NCBI GenBank assembly: GCA_002238905.1
Contig: MPNG01000001.1
Span: forward strand, 12,599-76,598
Direction of reading: 5' to 3'
From: Alphaproteobacteria bacterium bin98
Lineage (GTDB): Bacteria > Pseudomonadota > Alphaproteobacteria > Bin98
Length of the DNA stretch: 64,000 nt
The position numbers were made by a program, and so were the translations under genes. This document shows, piece after piece, positions 4,452-55,071 of this stretch. How positions within the stretch are numbered: the stretch's first letter is position 1; each line of letters starts with the position of its first letter. The notes under the pieces are model-generated. The model was not told the origin of the DNA. It worked only from the letters and a program-made list of their open reading frames with translations, and ran no database searches.

Positions 4452-4616
4452 TACACCTTGTTTGTCGATACTATATTACACGCAAATGAAATTAAAACAA
4501 GGATCTCACTTACTCGCACTAAACAAAATCAATGCACCAAATGCTTTTTAAAAAGTTGATGTTTTTAGCAAAACAATCATTATTTAAAGCAATGAAGATA
4601 AATGGGAAGGTGAGAC

Positions 4617-4652
4617 ATTCAGAGGTGCCCCCTTAACCACTCACCTCTGAAT
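4617..4652 (-). terminator. duplicate copy of hairpin 3531..3566
   Basis: Identical inverted repeat within the duplicated intergenic segment. Confidence 0.3.
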
Positions 4653-4688
4653 ATTCTTGCAAACTGTCGTGCCTCTCCAATTTTGAAA

Positions 4689-11377: not shown

Positions 11378-12193
11378 ATGCATTTTATATTATTATACTT
11401 AATCGCTACATACACATATAGCGCGCAAGCACCAGAGATAGATCCGGCCAACGCAACCCAATGGTTGAGGACGAAGGCCGGGCAAAGTAAACTATCTACT
11501 TTACAACAGAGGTTGAAGTGTTCCGGAGAAGGATGGTCCAGCACTGGCCAATGGTTGAGAACGAAGGCCGGGCAAAATATCCTATCTGATTTAAACAACG
11601 CGTTAAGATCAGATATTGGTTATGATTGTTTCACTTTAAGTCAAGTAGCGGATGAGATAACTAGGATGATGCGCTTAGACGATTACCATAAGAAATCAGC
11701 TAATCTGAAACAGGCTTACAAAAGATCACGAGACTCTTACTCAACACACTGCTATACAGAATCCTATCAAAGTGCTCGTCAAGCACAAAAGGACATCGAT
11801 AGCTCAAAGGCCACACTTGCCAAGACGCATCAAGAGTACATACCGCCTAGCTTGGAAGCTAAGGTTGCCGATCCCGATAGTGAATTCCATAAGATGAGTA
11901 TAGAGCTCCTCAATGCGCTTTTAAAGGACGCAAATGCAGAGGCAGACAATCCAAAACTGTACACCGATCAGCTCAGTCCTATGGGTATTGAACCCCTATC
12001 TGATTTTCCAGTTTTAGCGATACATAGAGATCTTTTAGAGACTATTAGGTATCTCTGTGAACAACAACAACATATGGCTGAAACCAGCTATCGTAATTGG
12101 TATAAGGAAAGAACATCAGATGAACAGATGGCGTTTCGTAGCTCATTATCACATCCGGCTGAACGCGCGAAACTTCTGTGCCCCATAAATTAA
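11378..12193 (+). CDS. secreted family protein with internal QWLRTKAGQ repeat
   Basis: Signal-peptide-like N-terminus MHFILLYLIATYTYSAQA. Internal duplicated segment. Its 3-prime module is shared with fragments at 829..1040 and 15482..15870. Confidence 0.6.
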   Translation: MHFILLYLIATYTYSAQAPEIDPANATQWLRTKAGQSKLSTLQQRLKCSGEGWSSTGQWLRTKAGQNILSDLNNALRSDIGYDCFTLSQVADEITRMMRLDDYHKKSANLKQAYKRSRDSYSTHCYTESYQSARQAQKDIDSSKATLAKTHQEYIPPSLEAKVADPDSEFHKMSIELLNALLKDANAEADNPKLYTDQLSPMGIEPLSDFPVLAIHRDLLETIRYLCEQQQHMAETSYRNWYKERTSDEQMAFRSSLSHPAERAKLLCPIN

Positions 12194-18277: not shown

Positions 18278-18844
18278 TTATTGATTGACAACAACTAATG
18301 TAGCGTAGAACTTATCATATCTTGTATTAAACTTATCTTGGAGTCCATTACAGAGAGCTTCTAGACTTAAGAAGAGTTGTCTCAACGTCTCTTGGTATCT
18401 CTGTACTTCTCGATGATCTAAAGAACAGGGACTTAATCTTTTAGAAAATGTAGACAATTCTTGCCTATTCTCTTTGAGTACTGGAGGATTTTTTTTCAAC
18501 AAGGTATGCATCTTTGCTTCCGCCACAACACTCAGGACATTACATCCATAATCAATGAGATCAGACAATGAGAGGGGATGCTCCGTTTGTATCAAGAAAG
18601 TGTCAATCGCAGTTAAGATCTTGTGTTTGTACGGAAAAATGGCTTCTTGCGCTACCTTCCAATGTTGTGATTTTGCAACAATCCCACCTTTTTTGCTATG
18701 TTCTAGAAAATGAGATTCCCATATTTCGACAGCTGCCTTCACCAGCTGTGCACCCTCTTCTTCCATGCCAGGCACTGATTTTAAGCTTGAGGTAGTTCCG
18801 TAAGCACATGAAAAAATCAAAAATAATAATATCAAATTCATCAA
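18278..18844 (-). CDS. secreted FC-family protein, subfamily E
   Basis: Signal peptide MMNLILLFLIFSCAYG. Motif LFLSLEALCNGL. Paralog of 12547 and 35077 genes. Confidence 0.65.
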   Translation of the reverse strand: MMNLILLFLIFSCAYGTTSSLKSVPGMEEEGAQLVKAAVEIWESHFLEHSKKGGIVAKSQHWKVAQEAIFPYKHKILTAIDTFLIQTEHPLSLSDLIDYGCNVLSVVAEAKMHTLLKKNPPVLKENRQELSTFSKRLSPCSLDHREVQRYQETLRQLFLSLEALCNGLQDKFNTRYDKFYATLVVVNQ

Positions 18845-34136: not shown

Positions 34137-34847
34137 CTACACCACCCATTGAAAAATCTTCTGGCATTCCTTTGTAAGGAAGAACATCTTTAAGGAGACG
34201 AGATGTCGATTGCCCATACATATAGCCTCGAAAACACCTAACAGATTTATGTATCCTGCTTTAACACGCGCATTTAGACATGCTGCGGAAACGGATTTAG
34301 GCCGTGATAAGGTTTGTGCGTCAGAAAGGAGCAACCAGCGACGAGCTAAAATGTTCAGCAAGCTATTCTCTATGGTTTCAGTCATAATAGGTTCATCCTT
34401 TATTCTGGTTAGAGTCTTTATTATGCTTACAGTAATATTAGGTTCACCCTGCTTTAGTATGGTTAGAGTCTTTATTATGCTTACAGTAATATTAGGTTCA
34501 TTCTTTATTTTTGCAAAATCATACGCGCACACAACTTTTGAAAAAACATTATCGCACAAAATAGTCATGATTGGTTTTATATAAATCTCTTCTAAGTCAT
34601 CAAGATTACATGTCTCTTGATAAGCCAAGCTTATATATTTACCTGTATCAGGTGCAGATGCACTATAGCAGCGATCGTCGCGAACAGTGTCGAGAACAGC
34701 TCGAATCTTACCTCTAGATGAATCCATGAGTGTTTGAGTGTTTGTCCACTCTTCATCAGAAATTGCGACAGAAGCGCCATGAGCGTATGAAATGAAAAAT
34801 AATAATATAAATAGCATAATTGTTACCCATGATATTATGCCTGACAA
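34137..34847 (-). CDS. secreted protein with 19-aa tandem repeat (EPNITVSIIKTLT)
   Basis: Signal peptide MLFILLFFISYAHGA is internal to the ORF start. 57-bp direct repeat at 34381..34494. C-terminal YINLLGVFEAICMGN is FC-like. Confidence 0.55.
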   Translation of the reverse strand: MSGIISWVTIMLFILLFFISYAHGASVAISDEEWTNTQTLMDSSRGKIRAVLDTVRDDRCYSASAPDTGKYISLAYQETCNLDDLEEIYIKPIMTILCDNVFSKVVCAYDFAKIKNEPNITVSIIKTLTILKQGEPNITVSIIKTLTRIKDEPIMTETIENSLLNILARRWLLLSDAQTLSRPKSVSAACLNARVKAGYINLLGVFEAICMGNRHLVSLKMFFLTKECQKIFQWVV

Positions 34848-36863: not shown

Positions 36864-38510
<1,647 letters not shown>

Positions 38511-38985: not shown

Positions 38986-39591
38986 TCACATCCACCTTAC
39001 AACCCTTTGTTGGAGTGTATTGACCAAACATTGCCACTTATAATATTCGTCCTCAGCGTCTAATTTCTTTTCCTCACAATAATATTTCAAAGATAATAAG
39101 AGGGTAGAGTACACGCTACCACTGTCCAGAGAGACAGATGCACCTTTTGCTTCTAAAAGTAATCTCTCGAATTCTGTACTTGTAGTACAAAAAGCACAAA
39201 GGTACGTTAGTGGGTTAAGATGAAAATACCGAGCTCTGCAATCCACCATTGCTTGACGTCTCCTCTCATCATTTTCTAGCAACTTCTCTTTGTTGCAGAA
39301 CTGTGCAAGCATATCTTCTACTGGTGTTACGCAATCTTTCATTAATCGCTGAAAATCATTAGTGTGTATTGTCCCGCACGGTAAAGTTAAAGTAGAAAAA
39401 AAATCTTTCAAACCTGTTCTGCACTCATCAAAAGATCGTTGATCCATTTTCCATTTAAAATATCGCAACCCCATATCTTCTGCTGATTGAGTCCTAAATA
39501 GCATATATCTATACAATTCAGACTCAGAGTCCTTCCCGCTCTCTGTTCCATGAGAGTATGAGCATATCAAAAATATTAATATCAGTTTCAT
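38986..39591 (-). CDS. secreted FC-family protein
   Basis: Signal peptide MKLILIFLICSYSHG. Motifs YLCAFCTT and LLLSLKYYCEEKK. Confidence 0.65.
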   Translation of the reverse strand: MKLILIFLICSYSHGTESGKDSESELYRYMLFRTQSAEDMGLRYFKWKMDQRSFDECRTGLKDFFSTLTLPCGTIHTNDFQRLMKDCVTPVEDMLAQFCNKEKLLENDERRRQAMVDCRARYFHLNPLTYLCAFCTTSTEFERLLLEAKGASVSLDSGSVYSTLLLSLKYYCEEKKLDAEDEYYKWQCLVNTLQQRVVRWM

Positions 39592-41339: not shown

Positions 41340-41411
41340 CGCAGTATAATTTTGTCCAAAGAGCATATTTTTTCACTAAAAGATGACACAATATACTCAA
41401 GGAGATGCATT

Positions 41412-42488
41412 GTGCTAGAAGCCAATAGCCATGTTTTAATATCCAAGCAAAGTTTAAGAAGCAATTATCAATTTTTTGCTGATTATGTCTCTTCGGCTAA
41501 TGTTGCAGTGGTGTTGAAAAATAATGGATTTGGATATGGCTATGCAGAAATAACACCCGCACTCTATGCACAAGGCTGTAGGCGGTTTTACGTTGCAGAT
41601 GTAGAAGAAGCGCTCCGTATGCGGTCTTTTATGCCACATCAAGATGTTATTATAGCCCCCCTCTTTCCTCTAATTTCTCAAAACTCTCTTCACACTATGC
41701 GCAAGGCCGACCTTACCCCCTCCTTGAACAGCGTTGAAGATATTCAAACATACCTACGCTATGGGTGTGGAAAATCTTGTGTGGTGCGCGTAAGTTTTGG
41801 TCTCAATGTGGGTGTGCCTTATCAAAAAATTGCAGAATTAAAAGGTGAATTAGGCAAAATCAAGCAACTCACCGTTTTGGGGCACCTTCCTTTTGCAGAT
41901 GACAAAAATTCTTCTCATAACACAAATGCTCTAAAGGATATGATCGCACTGCGTCAACATTTGCCAGATGCGCGTTTTAGTTTGGCTTCTACAGCGGCAA
42001 TATTCCTTGGAAGTGAGTTTTTTATGGATGAAGCGCGTATAGGTGTGGGTTTGTTTGGTGCTGTTCATTTTTCTAACAACAATGCTGCAAAAAATGCGCA
42101 AGACAAAATTTCCTTTGCTTTAAAATTAAAAGCTTACACACGACATTCTTATTCTGTAAAAAAAGGTCAGATCCTTGGGTACGAAAGCATCGCAAAAGAA
42201 GATATGCAGATGGTGGTTGTGAGCTGTGGGTACGCAAATGGCCTTCCGATACAAAAAAGTAAAGAGCCACTCTCACTTCCATATCAAGGCAAATCTCTAA
42301 GATTAGTTCCAGAAACTCTCTCAATGTATAACGCATCTTTTGCTACTAACGATATTATTGCTTCTGGAGAAGAAGTCACTCTTCTAAAATCCTTTGAAGA
42401 TAGCATGCAATTTCGTCGTATAGAAAAAATCAACCACTCCGAATTGCTTCTGCGCATAAGCCGCGCCCACCAACAATTTATTCCGTAA
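41412..42488 (+). CDS. alr: alanine racemase-like PLP enzyme
   Basis: VAVVLKNNGFGYG aligns with Alr AVVKANAYGHG (PLP-binding Lys). FYVADVEEALRMR aligns with FGVARLEEALRLR. VVSCGYANG aligns with VAMGYGDGY. GTG start at 41412 with an AAGGAG RBS 7 nt upstream. The listed ORF begins at TTG 41352. Confidence 0.7.
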   Translation: MLEANSHVLISKQSLRSNYQFFADYVSSANVAVVLKNNGFGYGYAEITPALYAQGCRRFYVADVEEALRMRSFMPHQDVIIAPLFPLISQNSLHTMRKADLTPSLNSVEDIQTYLRYGCGKSCVVRVSFGLNVGVPYQKIAELKGELGKIKQLTVLGHLPFADDKNSSHNTNALKDMIALRQHLPDARFSLASTAAIFLGSEFFMDEARIGVGLFGAVHFSNNNAAKNAQDKISFALKLKAYTRHSYSVKKGQILGYESIAKEDMQMVVVSCGYANGLPIQKSKEPLSLPYQGKSLRLVPETLSMYNASFATNDIIASGEEVTLLKSFEDSMQFRRIEKINHSELLLRISRAHQQFIP

Positions 42489-42677: not shown

Positions 42678-43313
42678 TTAAACAAGCATAAAGATCAATT
42701 CGCTCAGCACAACATCACGAGCCTCGTATTCATACATGTGTGTGAGACGCCAAATATTATATTTTCGTTCAGCGACTTCCTTATTATCCGCACAGTAAGC
42801 TTGAAAAGCTGATAAGAGGAGCCAATACTGCTGCGTATATATTGGGTCTAGCGAAGAGAGATCTTTTTTATATCTTGCCTCTAAGAGTAGTGAGTGACCC
42901 CTCTCTCTCAATACTAAAAAAGCATAACAAAAGATCTTTGCATCAAGCTCAAAGTACACATCTAGGAGATTTTTCTCATAATTCACATCACCTGCTCTGA
43001 AGACATCCCTTTTTCAGAAGGCATCAAGTACATTTTCTATTTGCTCTGAGAAAGCCATTAATTCTTTAAGATTCCTTATATCAAAAAAATTTTGAGGGTT
43101 TAATATATCTTGACAGGTTTTCCTGCAGGTGAAACATTCTTGATTTTTTGCCACCTAATAGTGCGCATAGCTTGCTCCTGGATTATAATCCGTTCACTAA
43201 TTTTCTTGAGTCTGAGAAGATCAGCAGAATTCTCTAACGATATTGCGTCATCTGCTTCATGCGCCAGTGAATAGATTAAAAATAGTAAGATTAATTTGAT
43301 AAATGCATTTCAT
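42678..43313 (-). pseudogene. disrupted tandem paralog of 43379..44029 (subfamily H)
   Basis: DNA collinear with 43379..44029. The N-terminal reading frame is broken (ATG frame stops after 18 codons; G-to-A change). Only the C-terminal 102-aa ORF is open. Confidence 0.55.
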
Positions 43314-43378
43314 AGAGAAACCGTATCACATCTTCATCATACCCTCAATCAATTTAAGAGTGGATGGGTTGAAAGGGC

Positions 43379-44029
43379 TTAGATTAGCTCCATGTTCTGC
43401 TGCATCACAAAATCACGAACCTTGTGTTCCTGTAGGTGTGTGAGACGCCAAATATTATATTTTCGTTCAGCGACTTCCTTATTATCATCAGAGTAAGCTT
43501 GAAAAGCTGATAAGAGGAGATGATACTGCTCCGCATATATTGGGTCTAGCGAGCAATCTTGCCTCAACATTATATAGCTTGCCTCTAATAATACTGCGCC
43601 ACACTTCTTTCTCAATACTAGAAAAGCATCATAGAAGGTCTTTGCATCAAGCTCAAAGAGCACATCTAAGAACTTTTGTGAAGAACCCACCTCCCCTGTT
43701 CTGAATATATTATTGCTTTTGCAGAAGGTGTCAAGCTTATTTTCTATGCGCTCTGAGAAAGCCATTAATGTTTCAAGATTGCTTATATCAAGAAAATTGT
43801 AAGGATTTAATATATCTTGACAGGCTTGCCTGCAAGTGAAACATTTTTGATTTTCTTTCCAGCGAACACAGCGCATATCTTGCCTCTCGATAGGCAAACA
43901 GCACTTGATTTCCCTTATTCTTTGAAAATCAGCATAATTCTCCAAATCGATTTCGGCACCTGCTCCATGCGCCAGTGAATAGATTAAAAATAATAAGATT
44001 AATGTCATGCTCATAAATGTACCTTTCAT
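43379..44029 (-). CDS. secreted FC-family protein, subfamily H (LLSAFQAYxxDNKEVAERKYNIWRL)
   Basis: Signal peptide MTLILLFLIYSLAHGA, with likely start at 44008. Cys-rich N-terminal part. C-terminal motif. Confidence 0.65.
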   Translation of the reverse strand: MKGTFMSMTLILLFLIYSLAHGAGAEIDLENYADFQRIREIKCCLPIERQDMRCVRWKENQKCFTCRQACQDILNPYNFLDISNLETLMAFSERIENKLDTFCKSNNIFRTGEVGSSQKFLDVLFELDAKTFYDAFLVLRKKCGAVLLEASYIMLRQDCSLDPIYAEQYHLLLSAFQAYSDDNKEVAERKYNIWRLTHLQEHKVRDFVMQQNMELI

Positions 44030-44505
44030 AGAAAAATCATATCACATGTTCTTCATATCCTCACTTTGTCAATCAATACATTTAACAAAAGTATTATTTT
44101 TCTCATCACTCACATGATCTGTTGACAAAATGAAGTGACCAATTTGGAATTTGGATAGACAACTTCTAGCGGTTGGTGAGCCCAATCACAGTATTTTTTC
44201 TTATATTTCTCTTTATTTTTGTTTGAGAGATTTCATCAATGCCAACGAAGAATATAATGCTTTGTTAGCTCTTGTAATAGCATATAGAGATAGACCTCTA
44301 TTGCAATTTTGTACATTATTAAAAAATCAAAAATTTGAGAAGACTGTTTACACTTTTCCTCTAGAGAGAAAATCAGCTATTTCAACACACCTCCATGCCT
44401 CTTGAACGCAGTCTATGTTCGCAATCAAAAATTTATATAGTAAGGTACAGGTTTTGTGCTGACTATTTAGCGTATTCTCCCGCTTCAAGATTTTAGCCTA
44501 TTCTG

Positions 44506-45120
44506 CTAGGCATTATTAATCCACGTACTCTTCTTCCTTGAGCAAATCCTTAGTAACATTCCTTCGTGGAGGTGTATAAAACGACAAATATTAAACTTTC
44601 GTTCAGATTCATCTTGAATTTCTAAAGAGTAATTTCGAAGATCTGATAAGAGACTATGATACTCCTGAATGTATCTTAAGCCTTGCAGAGGAGGGCCGCT
44701 CTCGCATTGATATTCTCTCTCTAAGCATCGTAAATGCACATTTCCTCTCAAGAGTGAAAAAGCACAGAAGAAGGTTAATGCATTAAGTTCAAATCTCCTC
44801 TTTAGGGACTCTGACATATCAAAATACACAACATCCCAATCGCCTATTAGATCAATTTTGTGTCAGAATTCTGCAAGCATCATATTAAGAAAAACTGCAG
44901 GATCGAGATTCTTTTCAAAATATTCTCGGACAGAATCAAAACGTTGTTGATCTGAGGTCCAGTTAAAAGCGCGCATACCTCGCTCTTTAACTGTTAAACG
45001 AAGCAATGAATAAAACCTTTGTGCGTCAGCAACATCCTCAAGAGGATGGCTCTCTCTGAAAGACGGTTTGACATAAGTTAATGATGCTCCATGAGCTTTT
45101 GAATAGATAAAAATTAAAAA
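44506..45120 (-). pseudogene. frameshifted subfamily H-like gene (N-part 44830..45120, C-part 44506..44829)
   Basis: The N-part is about 95% identical at DNA level to 46180..46499. The two halves are in different frames with stops between them. Confidence 0.5.
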
Positions 45121-45321
45121 AACAATAACATAAATTTTTTTCTCAACATGAGCATTTTCAATGAAACCGTAATTAATATTATCACTTGAAAAAAATAATT
45201 TATAACGCTGACATGTCGAATATTATTATTTTTAATCTGTTTACATGCTCATGGCGCTAAAAAAGTTTTTGAACCAGATAGACTATATTAATCATCTTGA
45301 TGAATTAAGGGTCTTGGAAAC

Positions 45322-46098
45322 TCAGTGCGGCCCAGCTCTCCTCCGCATCACAGCATCACGAACATTAGGTCCCTCGAGGTATCTGAGACGCCAAATATTA
45401 TATTTTCGTTCAGCTTTTTCATGATTCTCCACACAGTAAGCTTCCATAGCTGATAAGAGGTCATGATACTGCTGGATGTATATTGGCGGAGACAAATATT
45501 GCTGAAATTCTGGCTGATCGTACAGACAGTAATTTTGAAAAGATAATAAGAGGTCGCGACACTCCGGCGTGTACGCTGAGTTTGACGGAGACAAATATTG
45601 CTGAGATAATTTTTTATATCTTTGCGCTGATAATACTGACGTAACATGGCCTCTCAACATTGCAAAAGCACAGAAGAAGCTGAATGCATTAAGCTCAAAG
45701 AGCTCATCTGTGACAATGTTCACAACAGACTTCATATCAGCATAAGCGATTAAATTATGGTGCTGGTTTTTCTTCAGAAGCTCTTCTAATTCCACTGAAA
45801 ATGCCATTAATTCTTCAAGATCGACCATCTCAATCCACTTCTGAGAATCGAGTATTTTTTTACAAGCTTCCCCGCAATTCCCAAAATGTTCTTGATTTTT
45901 TATCCTGTTGAGCTCCCGCACACCTTGCCTTTCTACTGACAGACGGTTGAGTGCAGTTATTCTTTGCGCATCAGCAAACTCCTCCAGAATGGTGGTGGGC
46001 TCTGCTCCATGCGCCAGTGAATAGATTAAAAATAATAAGATTAATGTCATGAATAAACCTCTAATACAAAGTTTATATCCTATTCTCAGCTTTATCAA
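45322..46098 (-). CDS. secreted FC-family protein, subfamily H, with duplicated FC motif
   Basis: Signal peptide MTLILLFLIYSLAHGA at codon 17. Motifs LLLSFQNYCLY and LLSAMEAYCV. About 90% identical to 46639..47415. Confidence 0.65.
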   Translation of the reverse strand: MIKLRIGYKLCIRGLFMTLILLFLIYSLAHGAEPTTILEEFADAQRITALNRLSVERQGVRELNRIKNQEHFGNCGEACKKILDSQKWIEMVDLEELMAFSVELEELLKKNQHHNLIAYADMKSVVNIVTDELFELNAFSFFCAFAMLRGHVTSVLSAQRYKKLSQQYLSPSNSAYTPECRDLLLSFQNYCLYDQPEFQQYLSPPIYIQQYHDLLSAMEAYCVENHEKAERKYNIWRLRYLEGPNVRDAVMRRRAGPH

Positions 46099-46139
46099 TG
46101 AAGAAATTTAAAAAAATGATTGTTCCCCTCATGTTCACA

Positions 46140-46499
46140 TCATACCAACATTGGTTGTGAGAATTCCATTAATTTTTTAATACACTTTATATTAAGAAAA
46201 ACTGCAGGATCGAGATTCTTTTCAAAATATTCTCGGACAGAATCAAAACGTTGTTGATCTGAGGTCCAGTTAAAAGCGCGCATACCTCGCTCTTTAACTG
46301 TTAAACGAAGCAATGAATAAACCCTTTGTGCGTCAGCAACATCCTCAAGAGGATGGCGCTCTCTGATAAAACGGTTTGACATGACATAAGTTAATGATGC
46401 TCCATGAGCTTTTGAATAGATAAAAATTAAAAAAAACAATAACATAAACTTTTTTCTCAACATGAGCATTTTCAATGAAACCGTAATCAATATTATCAC
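46140..46499 (-). pseudogene. C-terminally truncated subfamily H-like gene
   Basis: 119-aa ORF with signal peptide MLLFFLIFIYSKAHGA. Homologous to the N-part of 44506..45120. The core and FC motif are deleted. Confidence 0.5.
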
Positions 46500-46638
46500 T
46501 TGAAAAAAAATAATTTATAATGCTGACATGTCGTTAATATTATTATTTTTAATCTGTTTACATGCGCATGGAGCTAAAACAGTTTTTGAACCAGATAGAT
46601 TATATTAATCATCTTGATGAATTAAGGATCTTGGAAAC

Positions 46639-47415
46639 TCAGTACGGCGCTCTCTCCTTCACAGCAGCACAAACATTAGGTCCATTGAGGTATGTAAGAC
46701 GCCAAATATTATATTTTCGTTCAGCTTTTTCATGATTCCCCACACAGTAAGCTTCCATAGCTGATAAGAGGTCATGATACTGCTGGATGAGCATTTCTGG
46801 CGGAGACAAAGATTTCTTAGATTTTGGCCGCTCGTACAGACAGTAATTTTGAAAAGATAATAAGAGGTCGCGACACTCCGGCGTGTACACTGACTCTGAC
46901 GGAGACAAATATTGCAGAGATAATTTTTTATATCTTTGCGCTGATAATACTGACGTAACCTGGCCTCTCAACATTGCAAAAGCACAGAAGAATTTGAATA
47001 CATCAAGCTCAAAGTACTCATCTGTGACATTGATAACAACAGCCTTCATATCAGGACGAGTGATTAAATCAGTCTGCTGGTTTTGCTTCAGAAGCTCTTC
47101 TAATTCCACTGAAAATGCCATTAATTCTTCAAGATCGACCATCTCAATCCACTTCTGAGAATCGAGTATTTTTTTACAAGCTTCCCCGCAATTCCCAAAA
47201 TGTTCTTGATTTTTTATCCTGTTGAGCTCCCGCACACCTTGCCTTTCTCCTGACAGATGGTTGATTTCATTTATTCTTTGCGCATCAGCAAACTCCTCCA
47301 GAATGGTGGTGGGGGGCTCTGCTCCATGCGCCAGTGAATAGATTAAAAATAATAAGATTAATGTCATGAATAAACCTCTAATACAAAGTTTATATCCTAT
47401 TCTCAGCTTTATCAA
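46639..47415 (-). CDS. secreted FC-family protein, subfamily H (recent tandem duplicate)
   Basis: Near-identical to 45322..46098, including flanks 46060..46140 = 47377..47460. Confidence 0.65.
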   Translation of the reverse strand: MIKLRIGYKLCIRGLFMTLILLFLIYSLAHGAEPPTTILEEFADAQRINEINHLSGERQGVRELNRIKNQEHFGNCGEACKKILDSQKWIEMVDLEELMAFSVELEELLKQNQQTDLITRPDMKAVVINVTDEYFELDVFKFFCAFAMLRGQVTSVLSAQRYKKLSLQYLSPSESVYTPECRDLLLSFQNYCLYERPKSKKSLSPPEMLIQQYHDLLSAMEAYCVGNHEKAERKYNIWRLTYLNGPNVCAAVKERAPY

Positions 47416-47695
47416 CGAAGAAATTTAAAAAAATGATTGTTCCCCTCATGTTCACATCATACCAACAAAGGTAGTAAGCACTCGGAATTTGATATCTTAT
47501 AAGGGCTGTTGAAACAAAGCATGACAAGTTGCATTGTGAGACGTTGCGCAATCTAAGAAGTCATAATAGAGAAATCTTAAAAAAAAGCGTGTGAGAATAT
47601 TGACAGATTCATATTATGTGAATGAGTTGTGTTGGTCCAAATTTGCTCTGCAAACACCATTTTTTCGTGCAAAGTACAATGATATAATACAAAAG

Positions 47696-50600
47696 ATGAT
47701 CACACCTGAAAACAATCGCCCTTTTTTTATCCATCTGCGCATGTCATCCTCTTACTCCTTAGCACAAAGCGCCATTAGCATTCAATCTGCTATTCATTAT
47801 GCAAAAGATCATAATATTCCAGCGTTGGCGATCACAGATGCGCAAAATCTTTTTGGAGCTTTTGAATTTTCATTAAAATGCTTAGAGCATGGCGTGCAGC
47901 CTATTTTAGGAGCCACCATAGAAATTTTCATGAGTGAGACAGAAGAAAACGCGCAGCTTCTGTTGTTGGCACAATCTGAAGAAGGTTTCAAAAACATCTC
48001 TTCTTTGGTGAGTCAATATCATCTGACAAATACACCCTGCTCTTGGGAGGATTTGCGCGCAAAAAATACTGGTGTCATCTGTCTTTCTGGTGGCATACAT
48101 GGCCCAATAGGTCGTCATATATTGGCCAATGATACCGACCAAGCCCTTCGTGTTGCAAAAAAAACTAAAAATATCTTTCAAGACAGATTTTATTTAGAGA
48201 TTATGCGCCATCACCGCGAAGAAGAAGTGAAAACAGAAGAGATATTTTTAAAAATTGCTATAGATGAGCATATTCCTATTGTGGCAACTAATGAGTGTTT
48301 TTACACACAAAAAAATATGTTTGATGCACATAATGTTCTTTTATGTTTAAATGCAGGTGCTTATATTCACTCAGCAGATAGACCACACAGCAATCCATAC
48401 TTTTATTTACGAACTCCACAAGAAATGGCCGAGCTGTTCTTGGATCTACCTGAAGCCCTTGCTAACACTGTCCATATTGCACAAAGATGTCACTTTTACT
48501 TAACACCTATGAAGCCAGAGCTTCCTCACTTCCCTAAAGTGGGTGATGAAACCGAAAACGCTATGATTATGCGTGTTGCTAAGCAAGGGTTAGCAACACA
48601 CATCAAGAATCATAGAGTGTGTGAGCATATTGCCCAAAATATTTACGAAGAGCGCATTGATTATGAGCTTGAGGTTATTACAAAAATGGACTTTTCTGGC
48701 TATTTCCTTATTATGTCGGATATTATTTTATGGGCCAAAAACCAAGGCATACCCGTTGGCCCAGGCCGTGGTTCAGCAGCAGGATCTCTTGTCGCATGGA
48801 CCATGGGTATTACCAATGTGGATTCGTTAGCATTTGATCTTCCTTTTGAGAGATTTTTGAATCCTGACCGTATTTCTATGCCAGATTTTGATGTAGATTT
48901 TTGTCAAGAGCGGCGTGAAGAAGTGATACATTATGTGCGTGATCTCTACGGAGAAGACTGCGTTGCACAAATAATTACCTTTGGAACATTGCAGGCGCGT
49001 GGTGTACTCCGAGATGTAGGTCGTGTTTACCAGCTTCCTTATATGCAAGTTGATAATTTGTGTAAGCGCATTCCTAACCAGCCCGGTCAACACGTCTCCC
49101 TTGCGGAAGCCCTTAAAGATGATCCTATTTTGCAAGATGAATTTGATAATAAGCCTGAAATAAAAAAGGTTTTTGAAATAGCTATGCAACTAGAAGGTTT
49201 GCATAGGCACGCCTCAACACATGCCGCTGGTGTTATCATCTCTAGTCGCCCAATTGCTGATATCATTCCTATTTATAAAGACGCCAATACAGATCTGCAA
49301 GTCACACAATATACAATGAAGTATGTTGAATTTGCAAGCTTAATCAAATTTGATTTTTTGGGCCTCAAAACACTTTCTGTATTAGCAAAAACAACAGAAC
49401 TTTTGAGCAACGATGGATATGATTTTAATCTTGATAGTTTAGATTTTAACGATGAACAAACATTTTCCCTTCTTGGCACAGGTATTACAGGTGGAGTTTT
49501 TCAAATGGAAGGCTCAGGCATGCAAGAACTGTTACGCCAAGCAAAGCCTGATTGTTTTGACGACATTATCGCCATTGTGGCACTTTACAGGCCTGGCCCT
49601 ATGGAAAACATTCCTAGTTTTTTGGCACGTAAACAAGGAAAAGAAAAGGTAGTCTACCTTCACCCTCTCTTAGAAGACATTTTAAAAGAAAGCTACGGCA
49701 TTCCCATTTATCAAGAACAGGTTATGCGCATTGCTCAAAAATTGGCGGGGTATTCAATGGGTGAAGCAGATTTGTTGCGTAGAGCTATGGGCAAAAAGAT
49801 TCCTAAAGAAATGGCAGCTCAAAAAAAGAGATTTCTAGATGGTTCTTCCAGAAACAATGTTTCTTTAGAGATTGCGGAAACTTTATTTGAGCAAATTGCA
49901 CGCTTTGCTGGGTATGCCTTTAATAAATGCCACGCTACATGCTACGCCTTTATTGCCTACCAAACAGCGTACATGAAGTCCCATCACCTCCCCTATTTTA
50001 TGGCTGCCTCTTTAAGCTTTGATATTAATAATGCCGCCAAAATATGGGAGCACAGCAAGAGTCTTTCTGTCTTAGGAAGCGACCTTTTGCCACCAGACAT
50101 TAACGCTTCAGATGTATGGTTTTCTGTTCAAAAATCAGGAGATAAAAAGTGTGTGAGGTTTGCATTAAGTGCTATTAAAAATGTAGGATCTCATATGGCA
50201 GAAACTATAGTAGAGGAAAGAAAAAAGAAGCGCTTTTCTTATCCTTCCGAGTGTTTTCAAAGGCTGCTTATGGCTGGTGTTAGCAAGCGCACTATTGAAC
50301 AATTAATGAAGGCAGGAGCTCTTGACTCTATAGAAAGAAATCGTGCTCTCTTGGAGTATATTTTCTCTGACACAAAAGAATGGATGCCGGATGGCAAAAA
50401 AATAGCAGATGACCAGCCTTCCTTCTTTGCTGAAGATTCTGTGAGCATCGTTGAAGACAATCGGCCTTCACTCATCCACAAAGGCATTGTGGATAAAGGA
50501 TTGCCTCAAAAAGCAGAAGATGAAAAACAAACTCTTGGTATTTATGTACAGTATCACCCTTTGGCGCCTTATAAAAAAATCATTAAAACCATGAATTTAT

Positions 50601-51109
50601 TGAGTATTGAAGGCGCTTATGGATTGTCAGACAAAGCGATGAGTTGTTCAATTATTGCCATTGTGAGCTCTATTACTGCTAGAAAAACGCAAGATGGGCG
50701 ATCATTCTCTATTCTTGAAATTGCGGATGAAAAAGCAACCATGAGCTTATTTCTTTTTAATAAAGAGCTGGAAAAAGTTTCTGCCTATAGCGCGGGCGAT
50801 ATTGTTGTGCTTCGCTGCTCAATTCGCAAATCGGATCGTGGAAGACGTTTTAATCTCGTGGACATACATGGAACAGAGGCGCTGTTGGCGGATATGAAAC
50901 GCCAAAATATTATCATTAATATTAATGCTTTTGTTAATATTCAAAAGTTGCTTGATATGATACAAGCCGCTCTTTTTGAAGGCGGCCCTCACACAATAAC
51001 AATTTGCTTGGAGGGTACGGTGGATTTGCCTCTTAAGCAAACATTTCTTTTCACAAATTATGTGTTGATGGAAATGGCAAAAATTGCTAATATTCAACGC
51101 AAAACGTAA
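47696..51109 (+). CDS. dnaE: DNA polymerase III alpha subunit
   Basis: Full-length collinear similarity to DnaE: PHP domain HLRxxSxYS...ALAITD, the PDFDVDFC palm motif, and FGTLQARGVLRDVGRV. The ORF opens at GTG 47591. ATG 47696 matches the E. coli N-terminus. Confidence 0.9.
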   Translation: MITPENNRPFFIHLRMSSSYSLAQSAISIQSAIHYAKDHNIPALAITDAQNLFGAFEFSLKCLEHGVQPILGATIEIFMSETEENAQLLLLAQSEEGFKNISSLVSQYHLTNTPCSWEDLRAKNTGVICLSGGIHGPIGRHILANDTDQALRVAKKTKNIFQDRFYLEIMRHHREEEVKTEEIFLKIAIDEHIPIVATNECFYTQKNMFDAHNVLLCLNAGAYIHSADRPHSNPYFYLRTPQEMAELFLDLPEALANTVHIAQRCHFYLTPMKPELPHFPKVGDETENAMIMRVAKQGLATHIKNHRVCEHIAQNIYEERIDYELEVITKMDFSGYFLIMSDIILWAKNQGIPVGPGRGSAAGSLVAWTMGITNVDSLAFDLPFERFLNPDRISMPDFDVDFCQERREEVIHYVRDLYGEDCVAQIITFGTLQARGVLRDVGRVYQLPYMQVDNLCKRIPNQPGQHVSLAEALKDDPILQDEFDNKPEIKKVFEIAMQLEGLHRHASTHAAGVIISSRPIADIIPIYKDANTDLQVTQYTMKYVEFASLIKFDFLGLKTLSVLAKTTELLSNDGYDFNLDSLDFNDEQTFSLLGTGITGGVFQMEGSGMQELLRQAKPDCFDDIIAIVALYRPGPMENIPSFLARKQGKEKVVYLHPLLEDILKESYGIPIYQEQVMRIAQKLAGYSMGEADLLRRAMGKKIPKEMAAQKKRFLDGSSRNNVSLEIAETLFEQIARFAGYAFNKCHATCYAFIAYQTAYMKSHHLPYFMAASLSFDINNAAKIWEHSKSLSVLGSDLLPPDINASDVWFSVQKSGDKKCVRFALSAIKNVGSHMAETIVEERKKKRFSYPSECFQRLLMAGVSKRTIEQLMKAGALDSIERNRALLEYIFSDTKEWMPDGKKIADDQPSFFAEDSVSIVEDNRPSLIHKGIVDKGLPQKAEDEKQTLGIYVQYHPLAPYKKIIKTMNLLSIEGAYGLSDKAMSCSIIAIVSSITARKTQDGRSFSILEIADEKATMSLFLFNKELEKVSAYSAGDIVVLRCSIRKSDRGRRFNLVDIHGTEALLADMKRQNIIININAFVNIQKLLDMIQAALFEGGPHTITICLEGTVDLPLKQTFLFTNYVLMEMAKIANIQRKT

Positions 51110-51240: not shown

Positions 51241-52446
51241 ATGCATCATCGTCAATTTGTCATCTGGTCTGGATGGTTAGTAGTATCACTTTTTTATGCG
51301 TATCAATACATTTTACGCGTACTTCCTAACATTATTTTGCCATTTCTGACAGAGCGTTATGCCATGGACGGAGTGCTCTTTGGACAATTTTCAGGCTTAT
51401 ACTACACAGGTTATGCGCTTGCGCATGTTCCTTTAGGTATCCTATTGGATCGATTTGGTGTTAAAAAAGTTCTTCCCCTTAGTTTTGCATTAACATTTTT
51501 AGGTATTTTACCCATTATTTATGGAAGTACCTGGCATTATCCCGCCATTGGACGATTGATCACGGGCATTGGCTCATCAGCAGCTATATTGGGTGCATTT
51601 CAATATATACGTCTCGTTTTTTCTGAGGGACGATTTACGCGCGTTTTGAGCATGACTGTTACCGTTGGTTTGATGGGTGCCATTTATGGAGGACAGCCCA
51701 CACAATATCTTTGCGATACTTACGGCGTGTATACTGTTATACACTTTTTAGTTGTTGTTGGATGTTTACTTTCTCTGGCAGCATATATCATTATGCCTAC
51801 CTCTAAAAAAGAACATCAAAAAAAGATTGGTTTTAAAGAAATTTTCCAAATCCTGACAAACACACGTACCTTATTGCTCGCCATTGCTTCTGGCTTTATG
51901 GTAGGCGCATTAGAAGGGTTTCCAGACGCTTGGGGTGTGGCTTTTTTAACAAAAGTGCACAACGTTACCGCCAAAGATGCCGCACAATTAACATCCTTTA
52001 TCTTTTTCGGCATGTGTTTTGGCGGCCCTCTTTTAAGCTACATTGCTGACAGCACAAAGCGTTATGTAGAAACCATTATTGGGGCTGGATTGGTGATGAC
52101 AGCATTGTTCTTTATTATTTTATTTTGCTCAGTGCCCGTGAGCTTGCTTTACATATTCTTCGTCATTATTGGTATCTCTTGCGCTTACCAAATCCCTGCT
52201 ATTTATCAAGCATCAACATATGTTGAAAAACAATTCACTGGCCTTGCCACCGCTCTCGTCAATATGGTGATTATGGGGTTTGGACACTTGCTTCACTCAA
52301 CAATTGGTGCAACAGTGAACTCTTATGGAGGGATTGACTCTGTATCTGGTTTGCACGCCGGCGTCTTAACGGTACCGATCACTTGTGTAATGGGTGTTAT
52401 GCTGCTTTTGTTGTTTAGAAAGTCTCTAGAAAAAGGTGGCTCATGA
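51241..52446 (+). CDS. MFS transporter (paralog 1 of 3)
   Basis: 401 aa with 12 hydrophobic segments. MFS motif A GILLDRFGVKK. AAGGA RBS. Its stop overlaps the next start (ATGA). Confidence 0.8.
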   Translation: MHHRQFVIWSGWLVVSLFYAYQYILRVLPNIILPFLTERYAMDGVLFGQFSGLYYTGYALAHVPLGILLDRFGVKKVLPLSFALTFLGILPIIYGSTWHYPAIGRLITGIGSSAAILGAFQYIRLVFSEGRFTRVLSMTVTVGLMGAIYGGQPTQYLCDTYGVYTVIHFLVVVGCLLSLAAYIIMPTSKKEHQKKIGFKEIFQILTNTRTLLLAIASGFMVGALEGFPDAWGVAFLTKVHNVTAKDAAQLTSFIFFGMCFGGPLLSYIADSTKRYVETIIGAGLVMTALFFIILFCSVPVSLLYIFFVIIGISCAYQIPAIYQASTYVEKQFTGLATALVNMVIMGFGHLLHSTIGATVNSYGGIDSVSGLHAGVLTVPITCVMGVMLLLLFRKSLEKGGS

Positions 52447-53648
52447 GCAATAGATTAAAAGGATTACCTCTTTGGATCAGTTGGCTATTTGCCACCGCTT
52501 TTTATGCGTATCAATACATATTACGTGTACTTCCTAATATAATGTATGAACCTATTGTCAAAAAATTTTCGATTGATGCTCATATTTTTGGTCAATTTTC
52601 TGGCGTTTACTATACAGGGTACGCCTTGGCTCATATTCCTCTAGGTATTCTATTGGATCGATTTGGTGTCAGAAAAACACTCCCACCTATGATTATTATT
52701 TCTGTATGTGGGCTTCTTCCTATTCTGTATTCAGATTTATGGCTATATCCTGTCATTGGAAGATACCTCACAGGTATTGGTTCAGCAGCAGCCCCTCTTG
52801 CAGCTTTTTATATTATTAGAATTGGATTTTCTGAATCCCAAGGCCCACGTATGCTGAGCTGGTTTGTGACCTTTGGTTTACTAGGCGCCATTTATGGAGG
52901 CACTCCCACCACTTATTTTTGTCAAAAATTTGGATATGAATCTGTTCTGAAAAGCACCATTGTTTTTGGATTTTTTATGGCTTTTATTGGCTTTTTGTAC
53001 CTACCAAAAGAAGAGAGCAAAAAAAGAAAATATGCTGCGTTGCAAGGAATATGGAAAATTCTTAAAAACAAAAAAACCATTATTATTGCCTTATCTTCTG
53101 GCTTAATGGTTGGTTCATTAGAGGGATTTCCAGATGCATGGGGAGGCATTTTTCTTACGAAAGTCTACGGTCTTGATCTAAATCTAAGTGCGCACTTAAC
53201 TTCCTTAATTTTTCTAGGCATGTGTTTTGGCGGCCCATGTTTAGCTTTTATTGCCGAATATCTGAAAAAACCTATTATGACAGTCATTTTAGCAGGATGC
53301 GTTATGACAATAACATTTTGTTCAATTCTTTTATTCACCCTATCAACAATCTTGTTAAATGTTATGTTTGTGTGTGTTGGCATTTGTTGTGCCTATCAAA
53401 TGATAGCTATATACAAAGCAGCGTCTTATGTAGACCCTAACTCCGCCACCTTAGCGACAGCTATTGTTAATATGATTATTATGATTTTTGGTCATATCCT
53501 ACACACCAGCATTGGTGCGGTCGTAGCATATAACGGAGGCATGCAAAGTATCTGGGGCTTACAAATGGGCATAAGCGTTATACCTATGTTCTGCCTAATG
53601 GGTGTTGTAGTGTTAGCCTATAACTATAAAAGATTGAGGAAGGATTAA
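52443..53648 (+). CDS. MFS transporter (paralog 2 of 3)
   Basis: 401 aa, about 45% identical to paralog 1. Shares the N-terminal FYAYQYILRVLPNI. Confidence 0.8.
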   Translation: MSNRLKGLPLWISWLFATAFYAYQYILRVLPNIMYEPIVKKFSIDAHIFGQFSGVYYTGYALAHIPLGILLDRFGVRKTLPPMIIISVCGLLPILYSDLWLYPVIGRYLTGIGSAAAPLAAFYIIRIGFSESQGPRMLSWFVTFGLLGAIYGGTPTTYFCQKFGYESVLKSTIVFGFFMAFIGFLYLPKEESKKRKYAALQGIWKILKNKKTIIIALSSGLMVGSLEGFPDAWGGIFLTKVYGLDLNLSAHLTSLIFLGMCFGGPCLAFIAEYLKKPIMTVILAGCVMTITFCSILLFTLSTILLNVMFVCVGICCAYQMIAIYKAASYVDPNSATLATAIVNMIIMIFGHILHTSIGAVVAYNGGMQSIWGLQMGISVIPMFCLMGVVVLAYNYKRLRKD

Positions 53649-53650
53649 AT

Positions 53651-54856
53651 ATGATGTCTGTAAGCTTAGCGATGTGGCGCAATTGGTCATTTATCACACT
53701 GTTTTATGCCTACCAATATATAGTGCGCGTATTACCCAATATTATCTACAAACCTATTGTAGAAACCTTTGGCATTAATGCTACTATTTTTGGACAATTT
53801 TCAGGCATTTATTATATAGGATACGCATTAGCACACATACCTGTAAGCCTATTGTTTGATCGATTTGGATTGAAAAAAGTTCTACCACTAACGCTTTTAT
53901 TAATGGTGGGAGGGCTTTTGCCTATTATTTATACAGAATCATGGATTTACCCTGTATTTGGAAGATTTTTAACCGGCATTGGCTCTGCCTCCGTAACGCT
54001 GGCGGCTTTTCACATTATTCGTGTAGGATTTCCCGTGGCAAAACATCCTATGATGCTAAGTTTAACAATAGCATTGGGATTGGTTGGGGCTGTTTATGGA
54101 GGAAGGCCTACAGCTTACCTTTGCGACCAACTTGGACATGTAGCCGTTATTCAGATTTTGGTTGCGGTAGGCAGTATTATTTCTGTAATTTCTTATATTT
54201 CACTTCCTAAGGAAAAAAATCGTTTAAAAGATGTGCAAATTTTGAAAGGCCTTAAGCATGTTTTTTGTAACAAAAACACCATGTGGATGTCTCTTACAGC
54301 GGGTTTAATGATTGGATCACTTGAAGGTTTTCCAGATGCTTGGGGCGTTATGTTTTTTACAAAAGTATACGGACTTCAGTTTGATTACTCCGCCCAATTA
54401 ACCTCTCTTATATTTTTAGGTTTAGGAGTTGGCGGCCCATTGGTTAGCTACGCAGCAGAAAAAACTGGAAAAGCCCTTTGGTTTATTATCATCGCAGGCA
54501 TTTGTATGGCTGTTCCCTTTTTATTCTTTTTGGGAATGCAGCTTTCTGACACAATGCTGATCGTTTCATTGATTACTATTGGAGTGGGATGCTCTTATCA
54601 AATGCTCTCTATTTACCATGCCTCTTACTTTGTGGAAAAAAAATATGCCACTATTTCTACAGCAGTGGTGAATATGATTTTGATGGGGTTTGGACATTTA
54701 CTACACAGCGCAATTGGATGCACCGTCAATATTTCAGGCGGATTGGATAATGTGCAAGCCTTGAAAAATGGCCTTTATGTTGTTCCATTAGCCAGCCTTT
54801 TGGGTGCTATTATTTTAATTATTCGCAGAAAATATTTTCAAAACCTCAAATCCTGA
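53651..54856 (+). CDS. MFS transporter (paralog 3 of 3)
   Basis: 401 aa. Starts 2 nt after the previous stop. Its 3-prime 215 bp are duplicated at 57165..57379. Confidence 0.8.
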   Translation: MMSVSLAMWRNWSFITLFYAYQYIVRVLPNIIYKPIVETFGINATIFGQFSGIYYIGYALAHIPVSLLFDRFGLKKVLPLTLLLMVGGLLPIIYTESWIYPVFGRFLTGIGSASVTLAAFHIIRVGFPVAKHPMMLSLTIALGLVGAVYGGRPTAYLCDQLGHVAVIQILVAVGSIISVISYISLPKEKNRLKDVQILKGLKHVFCNKNTMWMSLTAGLMIGSLEGFPDAWGVMFFTKVYGLQFDYSAQLTSLIFLGLGVGGPLVSYAAEKTGKALWFIIIAGICMAVPFLFFLGMQLSDTMLIVSLITIGVGCSYQMLSIYHASYFVEKKYATISTAVVNMILMGFGHLLHSAIGCTVNISGGLDNVQALKNGLYVVPLASLLGAIILIIRRKYFQNLKS

Positions 54857-55071
54857 CGCATGACATTTTTGAACAAATTTTTTTCTGACAGAGCAGAAAA
54901 AGGTTAGCTATATATTTTTGACACTCTACTTTTCAATCAATTCCTGCTAAAAACATAAATGAGGTATTTTTCCATGCCTTTAAAAGGTGATATTTTTTAG
55001 ATAAAAATAAATATTTTTATTTAAACAATATTATTCTATTGATGTATAATTTTTTCATCAAAAGGTATTAT

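What the first reader, a model, noticed from the sequence alone, without database searches (positions are those of the whole stretch)
44506..47460. Very recent tandem duplication of a two-gene unit with reciprocal decay of the partner gene
Genes 45322..46098 and 46639..47415 are about 90% identical with identical flanks. The adjacent gene is frameshifted in one unit (44506..45120) and C-terminally deleted in the other (46140..46499). This is ongoing birth-and-death within the family.
Basis: seen in the sequence. Interest (0 to 1): 0.5.

Follow-up and report, generated by a model that had tools for sequence, protein, structure and literature searches.

The report
Tandem duplicate of fast-evolving secreted-protein gene
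A 1.3-kb piece of DNA carrying one gene for a small secreted protein, plus the front half of its neighbour, has been copied head-to-tail in an uncultured alphaproteobacterium, and the two gene copies have since diverged almost only by amino-acid-changing mutations; this is a clear but not unprecedented case of a gene family growing under selection for diversity.

Summary
Window 44882-46150 and 46189-47467 are head-to-tail copies, 93.7% identical over 1285 columns. All genes lie on the minus strand, between dnaE and alr.

The repeated unit is not a full two-gene unit. It holds gene B with 100 nt upstream, plus only the 5' ~45% of neighbour A.
- The "C-terminally deleted" gene (A2', 46140-46469) ends where the repeat unit ends. 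It was cut by the duplication breakpoint, not by later decay.
- The original A (A1, 44506-45155) is dead: T8->T7 frameshift, an in-frame TGA, and two in-frame deletions.

The arrangement is not an assembly artefact. Ten contigs from at least five samples carry the exact junction ORF.

"Very recent" is only partly right. Silent and non-coding divergence between units is 1-4%, whereas sampled strains differ by 3 or fewer SNPs per 10-20 kb.

B1 and B2 differ by 49-60 non-synonymous but only 3-3.5 synonymous changes (dN/dS about 4.6-4.9, p about 0.001-0.002). The changes are enriched outside the predicted helices.

The copies still recombine. The window's B2 carries an 87-163-nt B1-type patch, and three short contigs show single-unit B2/B1 chimeras.

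A and B belong to an unannotated family of secreted all-alpha proteins with 16 or more clear members in this window. Function is unknown.

The parts
46151..47467 (-). Repeat unit 2 (dnaE-proximal): 100 nt upstream of B2, B2, the intergenic spacer, the 5' half of A (A2'), and 38 junction nt.
   Evidence: blastn core 46189-47467 vs 44882-46150, 93.7% over 1285 columns. Base-by-base alignment. Homology to unit 1 stops at 47467; beyond it lies the unique dnaE flank.
44860..46150 (-). Repeat unit 1 (alr-proximal): 100 nt upstream of B1, B1, the spacer, and the 5' half of A1. The blastn core starts at 44882; a looser alignment extends it to about 44860.
   Evidence: In one search, GAATTCTCACA in A2' aligns with GAATTCTGACA in A1.
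46639..47367 (-). B2: intact gene for a 242-aa secreted all-alpha protein (signal peptide MTLILLFLIYSLAHGA).
   Evidence: ORF. Alleles P0002, P0005, P0006 and P0007. 84% aa identity to B1.
45322..46050 (-). B1: intact paralogue of B2, 242 aa.
   Evidence: ORF. Identical to P0001, present in NCBI, JGI and ENA. AF2 model has pLDDT 84 and is all-helical.
46140..46469 (-). A2': junction-truncated copy of gene A. It is an open 109-aa ORF with an intact signal peptide; its last 5 codons and its stop come from the sequence upstream of B1.
   Evidence: The exact protein is found on 10 contigs.
44506..45155 (-). A1: full-length but dead copy of gene A (pseudogene).
   Evidence: tblastn of B1 covers 45129-44548 in a single frame. 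Lesions. The same lesions occur in every assembly.
45116..45122 (-). T7 run in the A1 signal-peptide region (T8 in A2' at 46429-46436). It causes a frameshift leading to TAA at 45114-45116.
44863..44865 (-). In-frame TGA in A1; A2' has TCA (Ser, within the motif LMEFS).
46151..46188 (-). Duplication junction: 38 nt that still encode A's family motif (IKCIKKLMEFSQP), fused at 46150 to the sequence upstream of B1.
   Evidence: The junction is present in L001, L002, L004, L005 and L093-L097.
47109..47195 (-). B1-type patch inside the window's B2 (minimum tract; maximum 47086-47248). It comprises 10 substitutions and a 3-nt indel, all matching B1: a gene-conversion tract.
   Evidence: One search shows winU2 = winU1 and differs from the B2 of L001/L002/L004/L011 at these positions. 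Only 1 other SNP occurs in 20.7 kb.
45406..45603 (-). 99-nt (33-codon) tandem duplication inside B1 (the same in B2): SQQYLSP...FQNYC followed by FQQYLSP...MEAYC. Gene C lacks it.
43379..44014 (-). C: intact family member (211 aa), 39-45% aa identity to B.
   Evidence: (P0003).
42678..43303 (-). D: fragmented pseudogene. It is the older tandem duplicate of C (42699-43347 vs 43395-44063, 79% identity).

Best explanation
Shown: a 1.3-kb segment was duplicated in tandem. On the minus strand it comprises 100 nt upstream of B, gene B, the spacer, and the first ~100 codons of the next family gene A. One breakpoint lay inside A. The other lay 100 nt upstream of B's ATG, 123 nt from dnaE.

The present order is dnaE | B2 - A2'(truncated) - B1 - A1(pseudogene) - C - D(pseudogene) | alr. 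The truncated A2' was therefore created by the duplication. The original A (A1) was inactivated afterwards.

Inferred:
- After duplication, the two B copies were driven apart by selection for amino-acid change, mainly outside the predicted helices, while silent and non-coding sites barely changed.
- Homologous recombination between the copies continues. It has produced a short conversion patch in this strain and probably single-unit deletion alleles in other samples.

B and A belong to a lineage-restricted family of Sec-secreted, ~190-260-aa helical proteins, with at least 16 clear members in this 64-kb window. The most likely role, which is inference only, is an envelope or extracellular protein interacting with a changing partner such as a host, a phage or a competitor. 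That would explain why new copies are kept and diversified.
For: Duplication and its boundaries.

The truncation coincides with the unit boundary. Homology to B2's upstream region starts at 46150, and A2's stop lies at 46140-46142.

Not an artefact:
- The order 243-109-242-103-211-102-alr recurs in ENA ERZ27241795 and ERZ27241796 and in JGI 3300027532 and 3300027327. An NCBI MAG carries B2, B1 and C alleles under consecutive locus tags OXC30_00545/00555/00560.
- Ten contigs carry the exact junction ORF, seven of them 50-200 kb long.

The A1 lesions are fixed in all assemblies.

Positive selection:
- Sd = 3-3.5 against Nd = 49-60.5, dN/dS 4.6-4.9, binomial p = 0.0012-0.0025.
- The non-synonymous rate is 2.9-3.6 times the non-coding rate between the units (Fisher p = 1e-4 to 8e-7).
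- Replacements are enriched outside the predicted helices (odds ratio 3, p = 0.003).
- dN/dS falls with pair age across the family: 2.1, 1.5, 0.95, 0.57. The neighbouring MFS paralogues give 0.25-0.30.

Conversion: 10 substitutions and one indel within 87 nt all match B1, against 1 other SNP in 20.7 kb.

Single-unit chimeras: L006 and L008 (crossover within 47317-47415) and L092 (crossover within 46917-46959).

Family: 16 window ORFs match the family profile at E < 1e-5, more at weaker scores. Only 40 clusters match among 1.84 billion representative proteins. There is no Pfam or NCBIfam hit. The AF2 model is all-alpha, pLDDT 84.
Against: - dN/dS comes from a simple Nei-Gojobori count on one pair with only 3 synonymous differences. 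Multi-nucleotide changes, or patches imported from unseen paralogues, could inflate the non-synonymous count. However, the synonymous share is still below that of paralogue-derived differences (p = 0.002), and no donor sequence exists in the window.
- If conversion is frequent, low silent divergence does not date the duplication.
- All sequences are short-read metagenome assemblies. The conversion patch and the single-unit chimeras could be assembly errors, and no reads were available to check.
- No expression or localisation data exist. Signal peptides were judged by eye, and no function was found by sequence or fold.
Confidence: 0.7

Rival explanations
1. Old duplication kept similar by concerted evolution. 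The two units are much older than 2-4% silent divergence suggests. Repeated gene conversion keeps homogenising them, and only selected variable patches stay different.
For: - A conversion patch is caught in this strain.
- Identity along the units is mosaic: 100% tracts of 100-160 nt alternate with clusters of differences.
- The 38 junction nt align only loosely to A1, right beside 178 nt at 99% identity. That pattern is expected at the edge of a conversion-prone region.
Against: - The other edge of the unit (47368-47467) is 99% identical right up to the boundary.
- The poorly aligned 38 nt lie in a decaying pseudogene that also has other indels.
- No outgroup is available. The family has no B-like relatives between 50% and 90% identity apart from B2.
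Confidence: 0.2
2. Assembly artefact. Two strain variants of a single B-A locus were stitched head-to-tail, or the true copy number differs from two.
For: - Everything comes from short-read metagenome assemblies.
- Three short contigs (L006, L008, L092) show one unit.
- In ERZ27241788 the assembly breaks exactly between A2' and B1.
Against: - The junction ORF is identical on 10 contigs from five or more samples, produced by different assembly pipelines.
- B1 and B2 differ about 100 times more than strains do elsewhere.
- The differences are almost all non-synonymous, and A1 and A2' differ in their lesions. That is not what strain alleles look like.
- The single-unit contigs are clean B2/B1 mosaics with two different switch points. 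They are therefore derived from the two-unit form, not ancestral to it.
Confidence: 0.04
3. Neutral decay. One B copy is redundant and drifting towards pseudogene status under relaxed constraint, with no positive selection.
For: - Two neighbouring family genes (A1, D) are already pseudogenes.
- Replacements concentrate in loops and low-confidence segments of the model, where constraint is weakest.
Against: - Relaxed constraint gives dN/dS of about 1 at most. The observed value is 4.6-4.9 and is significantly above 1.
- Both B ORFs are intact in all alleles seen.
- Indels between B1 and B2 are all multiples of 3.
Confidence: 0.1

Closest known systems
Tandem segmental duplication followed by non-allelic homologous recombination (the gene amplification/reduction cycle known from bacterial genetics)
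   Same: - Head-to-tail copies with one novel junction and unique flanks.
- A breakpoint inside a gene leaves a truncated copy.
- Later conversion, and apparent collapse to one chimeric unit by crossover between the copies.
   Different: Classical amplifications are unstable and the copies stay identical. Here the two-unit form is the standard arrangement in the sampled population, and the copies have diverged by 7%.
Birth-and-death multigene families of secreted or surface proteins in host-associated bacteria, for example the Borrelia burgdorferi paralogous families of helical outer-surface lipoproteins (BBH37 / PFam12, BBA66)
   Same: - Many small all-helical exported paralogues, clustered in arrays.
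- Frequent pseudogenes and rapid amino-acid divergence.
   Different: - No sequence similarity.
- The fold matches are generic helical bundles covering about 100 of 242 residues, scoring no better than designed proteins.
- No lipobox: the signal peptide ends AHGA|E, with no Cys.
- The genes are chromosomal rather than on plasmids.

This is an analogy only, not family membership.
Post-duplication diversifying selection (dN/dS > 1 in young paralogue pairs)
   Same: The youngest pair has the highest dN/dS, and the ratio declines with pair age (4.6-4.9, 2.1, 1.5, 0.95, 0.57).
   Different: The case rests on pairwise counts within one genome. No site- or branch-level model was fitted, and there is no outgroup.

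Membership tests
Tandem (head-to-tail) segmental duplication | Two directly repeated, adjacent copies in the same orientation with high identity along the whole unit. | tested here: met
   44882-46150 vs 46189-47467, 93.7% over 1285 columns, spacing 1307-1317 nt.
Tandem (head-to-tail) segmental duplication | A single novel junction joins the end of the unit to its start, and the outer flanks are unique. | tested here: met
   At 46150/46151 the A-gene sequence abuts the sequence that elsewhere follows the dnaE flank (47467/47468). The flanks do not match each other.
Tandem (head-to-tail) segmental duplication | Present in the organism and not created by assembly. | tested here: inconclusive
   Ten contigs from five or more samples and several assembly pipelines carry the junction ORF. 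No reads or long reads were available, and three short contigs show a single chimeric unit.
Gene conversion between paralogues | A cluster of differences from sister strains in which every variant matches the paralogous copy, bounded by the recipient's own variants on both sides. | tested here: met
   All 10 substitutions and a 3-nt indel at 47109-47195 match B1. B2-specific variants are kept at 47249-47316 and from 47085 downstream. Only 1 other SNP occurs in 20.7 kb.
Birth-and-death multigene family | Paralogue pairs of graded ages together with pseudogenes within the same array. | tested here: met
   Pairs at 94, 85, 82, 79 and 78% nucleotide identity. Pseudogenes A1 and D. 16 ORFs match the family profile at E < 1e-5, more at weaker scores.
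Positive (diversifying) selection after duplication | dN/dS significantly greater than 1. | tested here: met
   NG86 gives 4.6 (window) and 4.9 (unconverted allele). The binomial test of the synonymous share gives p = 0.0025 and 0.0012. This is a pairwise count only; no likelihood model was fitted.
Phase variation by homopolymer slippage (T7/T8 in gene A) | Tract length varies among cells or strains, switching the reading frame on and off. | tested here: not met
   A1 has T7 and A2' has T8 in every assembly that covers them. A1 also carries a TGA and deletions, so it is fixed as a pseudogene.
Any curated protein family (Pfam-A, NCBIfam, PDB sequences) | A significant profile match. | tested here: not met
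   No hit reaches a curated cut-off; the best E-values are 0.03-0.16. The best PDB sequence match with the family profile has E = 0.06.
Borrelia paralogous helical outer-surface lipoproteins | Lipoprotein signal peptide with a lipobox Cys, and specific fold similarity. | tested here: not met

The most novel reading that the evidence does not exclude
This could be one locus of a genome-wide diversification system in a deep-branching, probably host-restricted alphaproteobacterium. In this reading, a lineage-specific family of secreted helical proteins (single- and multi-domain forms, up to 9 domains) expands continually by tandem duplication. Selection drives the new copies apart, and conversion and unequal crossover reshuffle them fast enough to be the main source of variation in an otherwise clonal population. 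Functionally that would be an effector or surface-variation repertoire of a new protein type.
Probability: 0.3. Interest if true: 0.55.

Novelty: new member of a known kind. Interest (0 to 1): 0.4.

Why it matters
The locus captures several stages of gene-family evolution together:
- a duplication whose breakpoints can be read to the base;
- a by-product truncated gene, and a decaying original;
- two daughter genes with a roughly 15:1 excess of replacement over silent changes;
- a conversion patch that is almost the only difference from sister strains over 20 kb.

It marks an unannotated secreted protein family as the fastest-evolving component of this uncultured bacterium's genome. That makes the family the obvious candidate for whatever interaction dominates the organism's ecology. 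It also shows that "percent identity" between paralogues can badly misdate a duplication when selection and conversion both act.

Tried and rejected
- Pfam and NCBIfam scans of six family proteins found nothing.
- The family profile against PDB sequences found nothing.
- The word-indexed protein search found only B1, B2 and C with the single protein. With the family profile it added only two further proteins, both from the same long contigs.
- The genome-contig scan with the B/C alignment found no relative. The broad family alignment was too divergent to search with.
- The DnaE scan gave at most 50% identity, so neither the species nor a close relative is in that collection and no outgroup locus exists.
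- Both metagenome-contig scans (protein and exact 34-mer) found nothing, so that collection lacks these samples.
- A paper search for the six JGI sample numbers gave no hits, so the host or habitat is undetermined.
- P0007, the window's B2 allele, is not in the contig index.
- Phase variation at T7/T8 is rejected: the tract is invariant.
- A donor paralogue for the B2-specific patches does not exist in the window.
- The promoter and terminator scan gave only weak consensus matches. One candidate (TTGATA-17-TAAACT) lies in both units at 47387-47415 and 46070-46098.
- Rfam and tRNA scans found nothing in the region.
Full report
**What is there**

All genes in 42.6-47.5 kb lie on the minus strand, between alr (41352-42488, +) and dnaE (47591-51109, +). 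blastn of the window against itself shows one strong direct repeat: 44882-46150 vs 46189-47467, 93.7% identical over 1285 columns, with 59 mismatches and 13 gap openings. It also shows an older repeat, 42699-43347 vs 43395-44063, at 79%.

Read 5'->3' on the minus strand, the array is:
- B2 (47367-46639)
- A2' (46469-46140)
- B1 (46050-45322)
- A1 (45155-44506)
- C (44014-43379)
- D (about 43303-42678)

A, B and C/D are paralogues of one another at 30-45% amino-acid identity.
- B1 and B2 are 92.8% identical in nucleotides and 84% in protein.
- The upstream flank is 99/100 identical and the downstream spacer 159/166.
- One neighbour is frameshifted and the other truncated.

**Anatomy of the duplication**

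The base-by-base alignment shows that homology between the units begins abruptly at 47467 <-> 46150 (TGTTGGTATGATGTG...). Upstream of 47467 lies the unique dnaE flank. Upstream of 46150 lies the end of A2'.

At the other end, the units are 99% identical for 178 nt up to 46189 <-> 44882. After that come 38 nt (46188-46151) that still encode the family motif (IKCIKKLMEFSQP; compare LEELMAFSV in B and LETLMAFSE in C). These 38 nt align to A1 only with a 12-14-nt gap. The alignment includes GAATTCTCACA against GAATTCTGACA.

So the unit is 100 nt upstream of B, plus B, plus the spacer, plus the first ~100 codons of A. A2' reads 5 codons into the sequence upstream of B1 and then stops. Its truncation point is the unit boundary, which makes it the direct product of the duplication breakpoint.

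A later deletion would have had to end exactly where homology to B2's upstream region starts. That coincidence makes later deletion the less economical reading.

**A1 is a fixed pseudogene**

A1 is the original full-length gene, and it is dead. It carries four lesions:
- T7 (45116-45122) where A2' has T8, giving TAA after 13 codons, with no alternative start codon in the shifted frame;
- TGA at 44863-44865 where A2' has TCA;
- a 6-nt in-frame deletion;
- a roughly 12-nt in-frame deletion.

The same T7/T8 lengths and the same TGA occur in every independent assembly. These are fixed lesions, not sequencing errors and not phase variation.

**Is it an assembly artefact?**

The window comes from an uncultured alphaproteobacterium. 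An NCBI MAG with locus tag OXC30 carries alleles of the same genes (DnaE is identical, MCY4413461). The window's DnaE is at most 50% identical to that of any of 185,579 species representatives.

The same gene order (243-109-242-103-211-102 aa, then alr) occurs in ENA assemblies ERZ27241795 and ERZ27241796 and in JGI 3300027532 and 3300027327. Ten contigs carry the exact junction ORF A2', seven of them 50-200 kb long. In ERZ27241788 the assembler broke exactly between A2' and B1, which is the normal behaviour at such a repeat.

An expansion artefact is therefore very unlikely. Read-level proof is still missing.

**How recent is it?**

Outside one patch, the window and the other assemblies differ by 1-3 SNPs per 10-20 kb. 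Between the two units, silent and non-coding divergence is 1-4%: dS = 0.02, upstream 1%, spacer 4%, A part 3%. The duplication is young in absolute terms. It is still about two orders of magnitude older than the diversity of the sampled population, and it is the standard arrangement in that population.

**Why the B copies look older than their flanks**

Nei-Gojobori counts for B2 vs B1:

| Comparison | Synonymous differences | Non-synonymous differences | dN/dS | Binomial p |
|---|---|---|---|---|
| Window B2 vs B1 | 3.0 | 49.0 | 4.6 | 0.0025 |
| Unconverted B2 allele (L001) vs B1 | 3.5 | 60.5 | 4.9 | 0.0012 |

Further points:
- The non-synonymous rate is 2.9-3.6 times the non-coding rate between the same units (p = 1e-4 to 8e-7).
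- The synonymous share is also lower than for differences between old paralogues (p = 0.002). Import of patches from other family members therefore does not explain the excess, and no donor sequence is present in the window.
- All B1/B2 indels are multiples of three.
- On an AlphaFold model of B1 (pLDDT 84, pTM 0.79, eleven helices), replacements are three-fold enriched outside the helices (p = 0.003).
- Across the family, dN/dS falls with pair age: 2.1 at dS 0.12, 1.5 at 0.20, 0.95 at 0.35 and 0.57 at 0.55. The adjacent MFS transporter paralogues give 0.25-0.30.

This is the classical signature of diversifying selection right after duplication. The caveats are that it rests on a pairwise count with very few synonymous changes and that no likelihood model was fitted.

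**Continuing recombination between the copies**

The window's B2 differs from the B2 of L001, L002, L004 and L011 at 10 substitutions and a 3-nt indel, all within 47109-47195. At every one of these positions the window's B2 equals B1. B2-specific variants remain on both sides, which limits the tract to at most 47086-47248. Over 20.7 kb there is only one other SNP.

This is a single gene-conversion event, B1 into B2. At the protein level it replaces EKSCREDCEKILGSRKWIEMVDLEELRTFSM with GNCGEACKKILDSQKWIEMVDLEELMAFSV. An assembly double-switch would need k-mers of 23 nt or shorter, because only 23 identical nt separate the patch from the next B2-specific variant on one side. I consider that unlikely, but it is not excluded.

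Three short contigs show only one unit, with a clean B2->B1 switch:
- L006 and L008 (JGI 3300002150 and 3300002147) switch within 47317-47415.
- L092 (ENA ERZ27241797) switches within 46917-46959, giving the chimeric protein P0008.

Because they are mosaics of both derived copies, they cannot be the ancestral single-copy state. They are either deletion alleles made by unequal crossover or assembly chimeras. Reads are needed to decide.

**What the genes are**

- None of the six family proteins scanned matches Pfam or NCBIfam.
- A profile built from four members hits 16 ORFs of the window at E < 1e-5, and more at weaker scores.
- Among 1.84 billion representative proteins, only 40 match at E <= 1e-3. 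Several carry 2-9 tandem copies of the domain.
- Members start with a short hydrophobic signal peptide (M-x-L-I-L-L-F-L-I-x-S-x-A-x-G-A) and share C-terminal motifs (Y..LLxS...YC, AE.KY..W).

I therefore treat the family as an uncharacterised, lineage-restricted secreted all-alpha protein. The suggestion that it interacts with a changing partner (host, phage or competitor) is inference from its export signal, its expansion and its dN/dS. It is not shown.

**Verdict**

The tandem duplication and the birth-and-death dynamics are real. However, the unit is one gene plus a half gene, the truncation is the breakpoint rather than decay, and "very recent" needs qualifying.
- This is a new example of a known evolutionary process in an unannotated protein family. 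It is moderately interesting, not categorically new.

Noticed in passing
window 1-64000 (e.g. 2-610, 3596-4234, 4689-5288, 5691-6398, 9883-11094, 11378-12193, 18278-18844, 23210-23848, 27992-28684, 34137-34847, 36864-38510, 38986-39591, 56092-56886, 63626-64000): 16 ORFs of the window match a profile of the same secreted all-alpha family at E < 1e-5, and more match at weaker scores. Much of this 64-kb stretch consists of family members, with housekeeping genes (alr, dnaE, tRNA-Ile, MFS transporters) interspersed.
   Followed up: partly
window 45406-45603 (B1) and 46720-46920 (B2): B genes contain a 99-nt (33-codon) internal tandem duplication of the C-terminal motif (QQYLSP...FQNYC / QQYLSP...MEAYC). 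Paralogue C lacks it. So duplication also acts inside genes.
   Followed up: partly
window 54633-55007 and 57157-57531: A 376-nt direct repeat, 98% identical, with 2524 nt spacing. The first copy is the 3' end of the third MFS gene. The pair brackets ORF 55649-56095 (+) and family member 56092-56886 (-). It could be another recent segmental duplication or an insertion.
   Followed up: no
window 3282-4225 vs 4378-5311; 61755-62399 vs 62790-63434: Two older tandem pairs of family genes, at 85% and 82% nucleotide identity, with dN/dS of 2.1 and 1.5. They extend the pattern seen in B1/B2.
   Followed up: partly
window 57609-61223 (+): A 1204-aa ORF with no Pfam match and with internal repeats of about 300 nt (58742-59981, about 80% identity between repeats).
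   Followed up: no
window 51241-54856 (+): Three tandem 401-aa MFS_1 transporter genes with overlapping or abutting stop and start codons. They are old paralogues under purifying selection (48-49% aa identity, dN/dS 0.25-0.30) and were used here as a control.
   Followed up: partly
proteins P0021 (1581 aa), P0025, P0027, P0029, P0032, P0036, P0038 (not in the window): Relatives of the family exist as multi-domain proteins with 2-9 tandem copies of the ~190-aa domain behind one signal peptide. Their source genomes could not be looked up.
   Followed up: no
window 47591-51109 (dnaE) and the whole window: DnaE is at most 50% identical to that of any GTDB species representative. GC is 36-40% and intergenic spacers are long. 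This points to a deep-branching, possibly host-restricted alphaproteobacterium whose habitat could not be identified.
   Followed up: partly
window 37396-37401: A 6-nt in-frame indel polymorphism between the window and contig L003, inside the 548-aa ORF 36864-38510, which has a weak family match. It is one of the very few strain differences seen.
   Followed up: no
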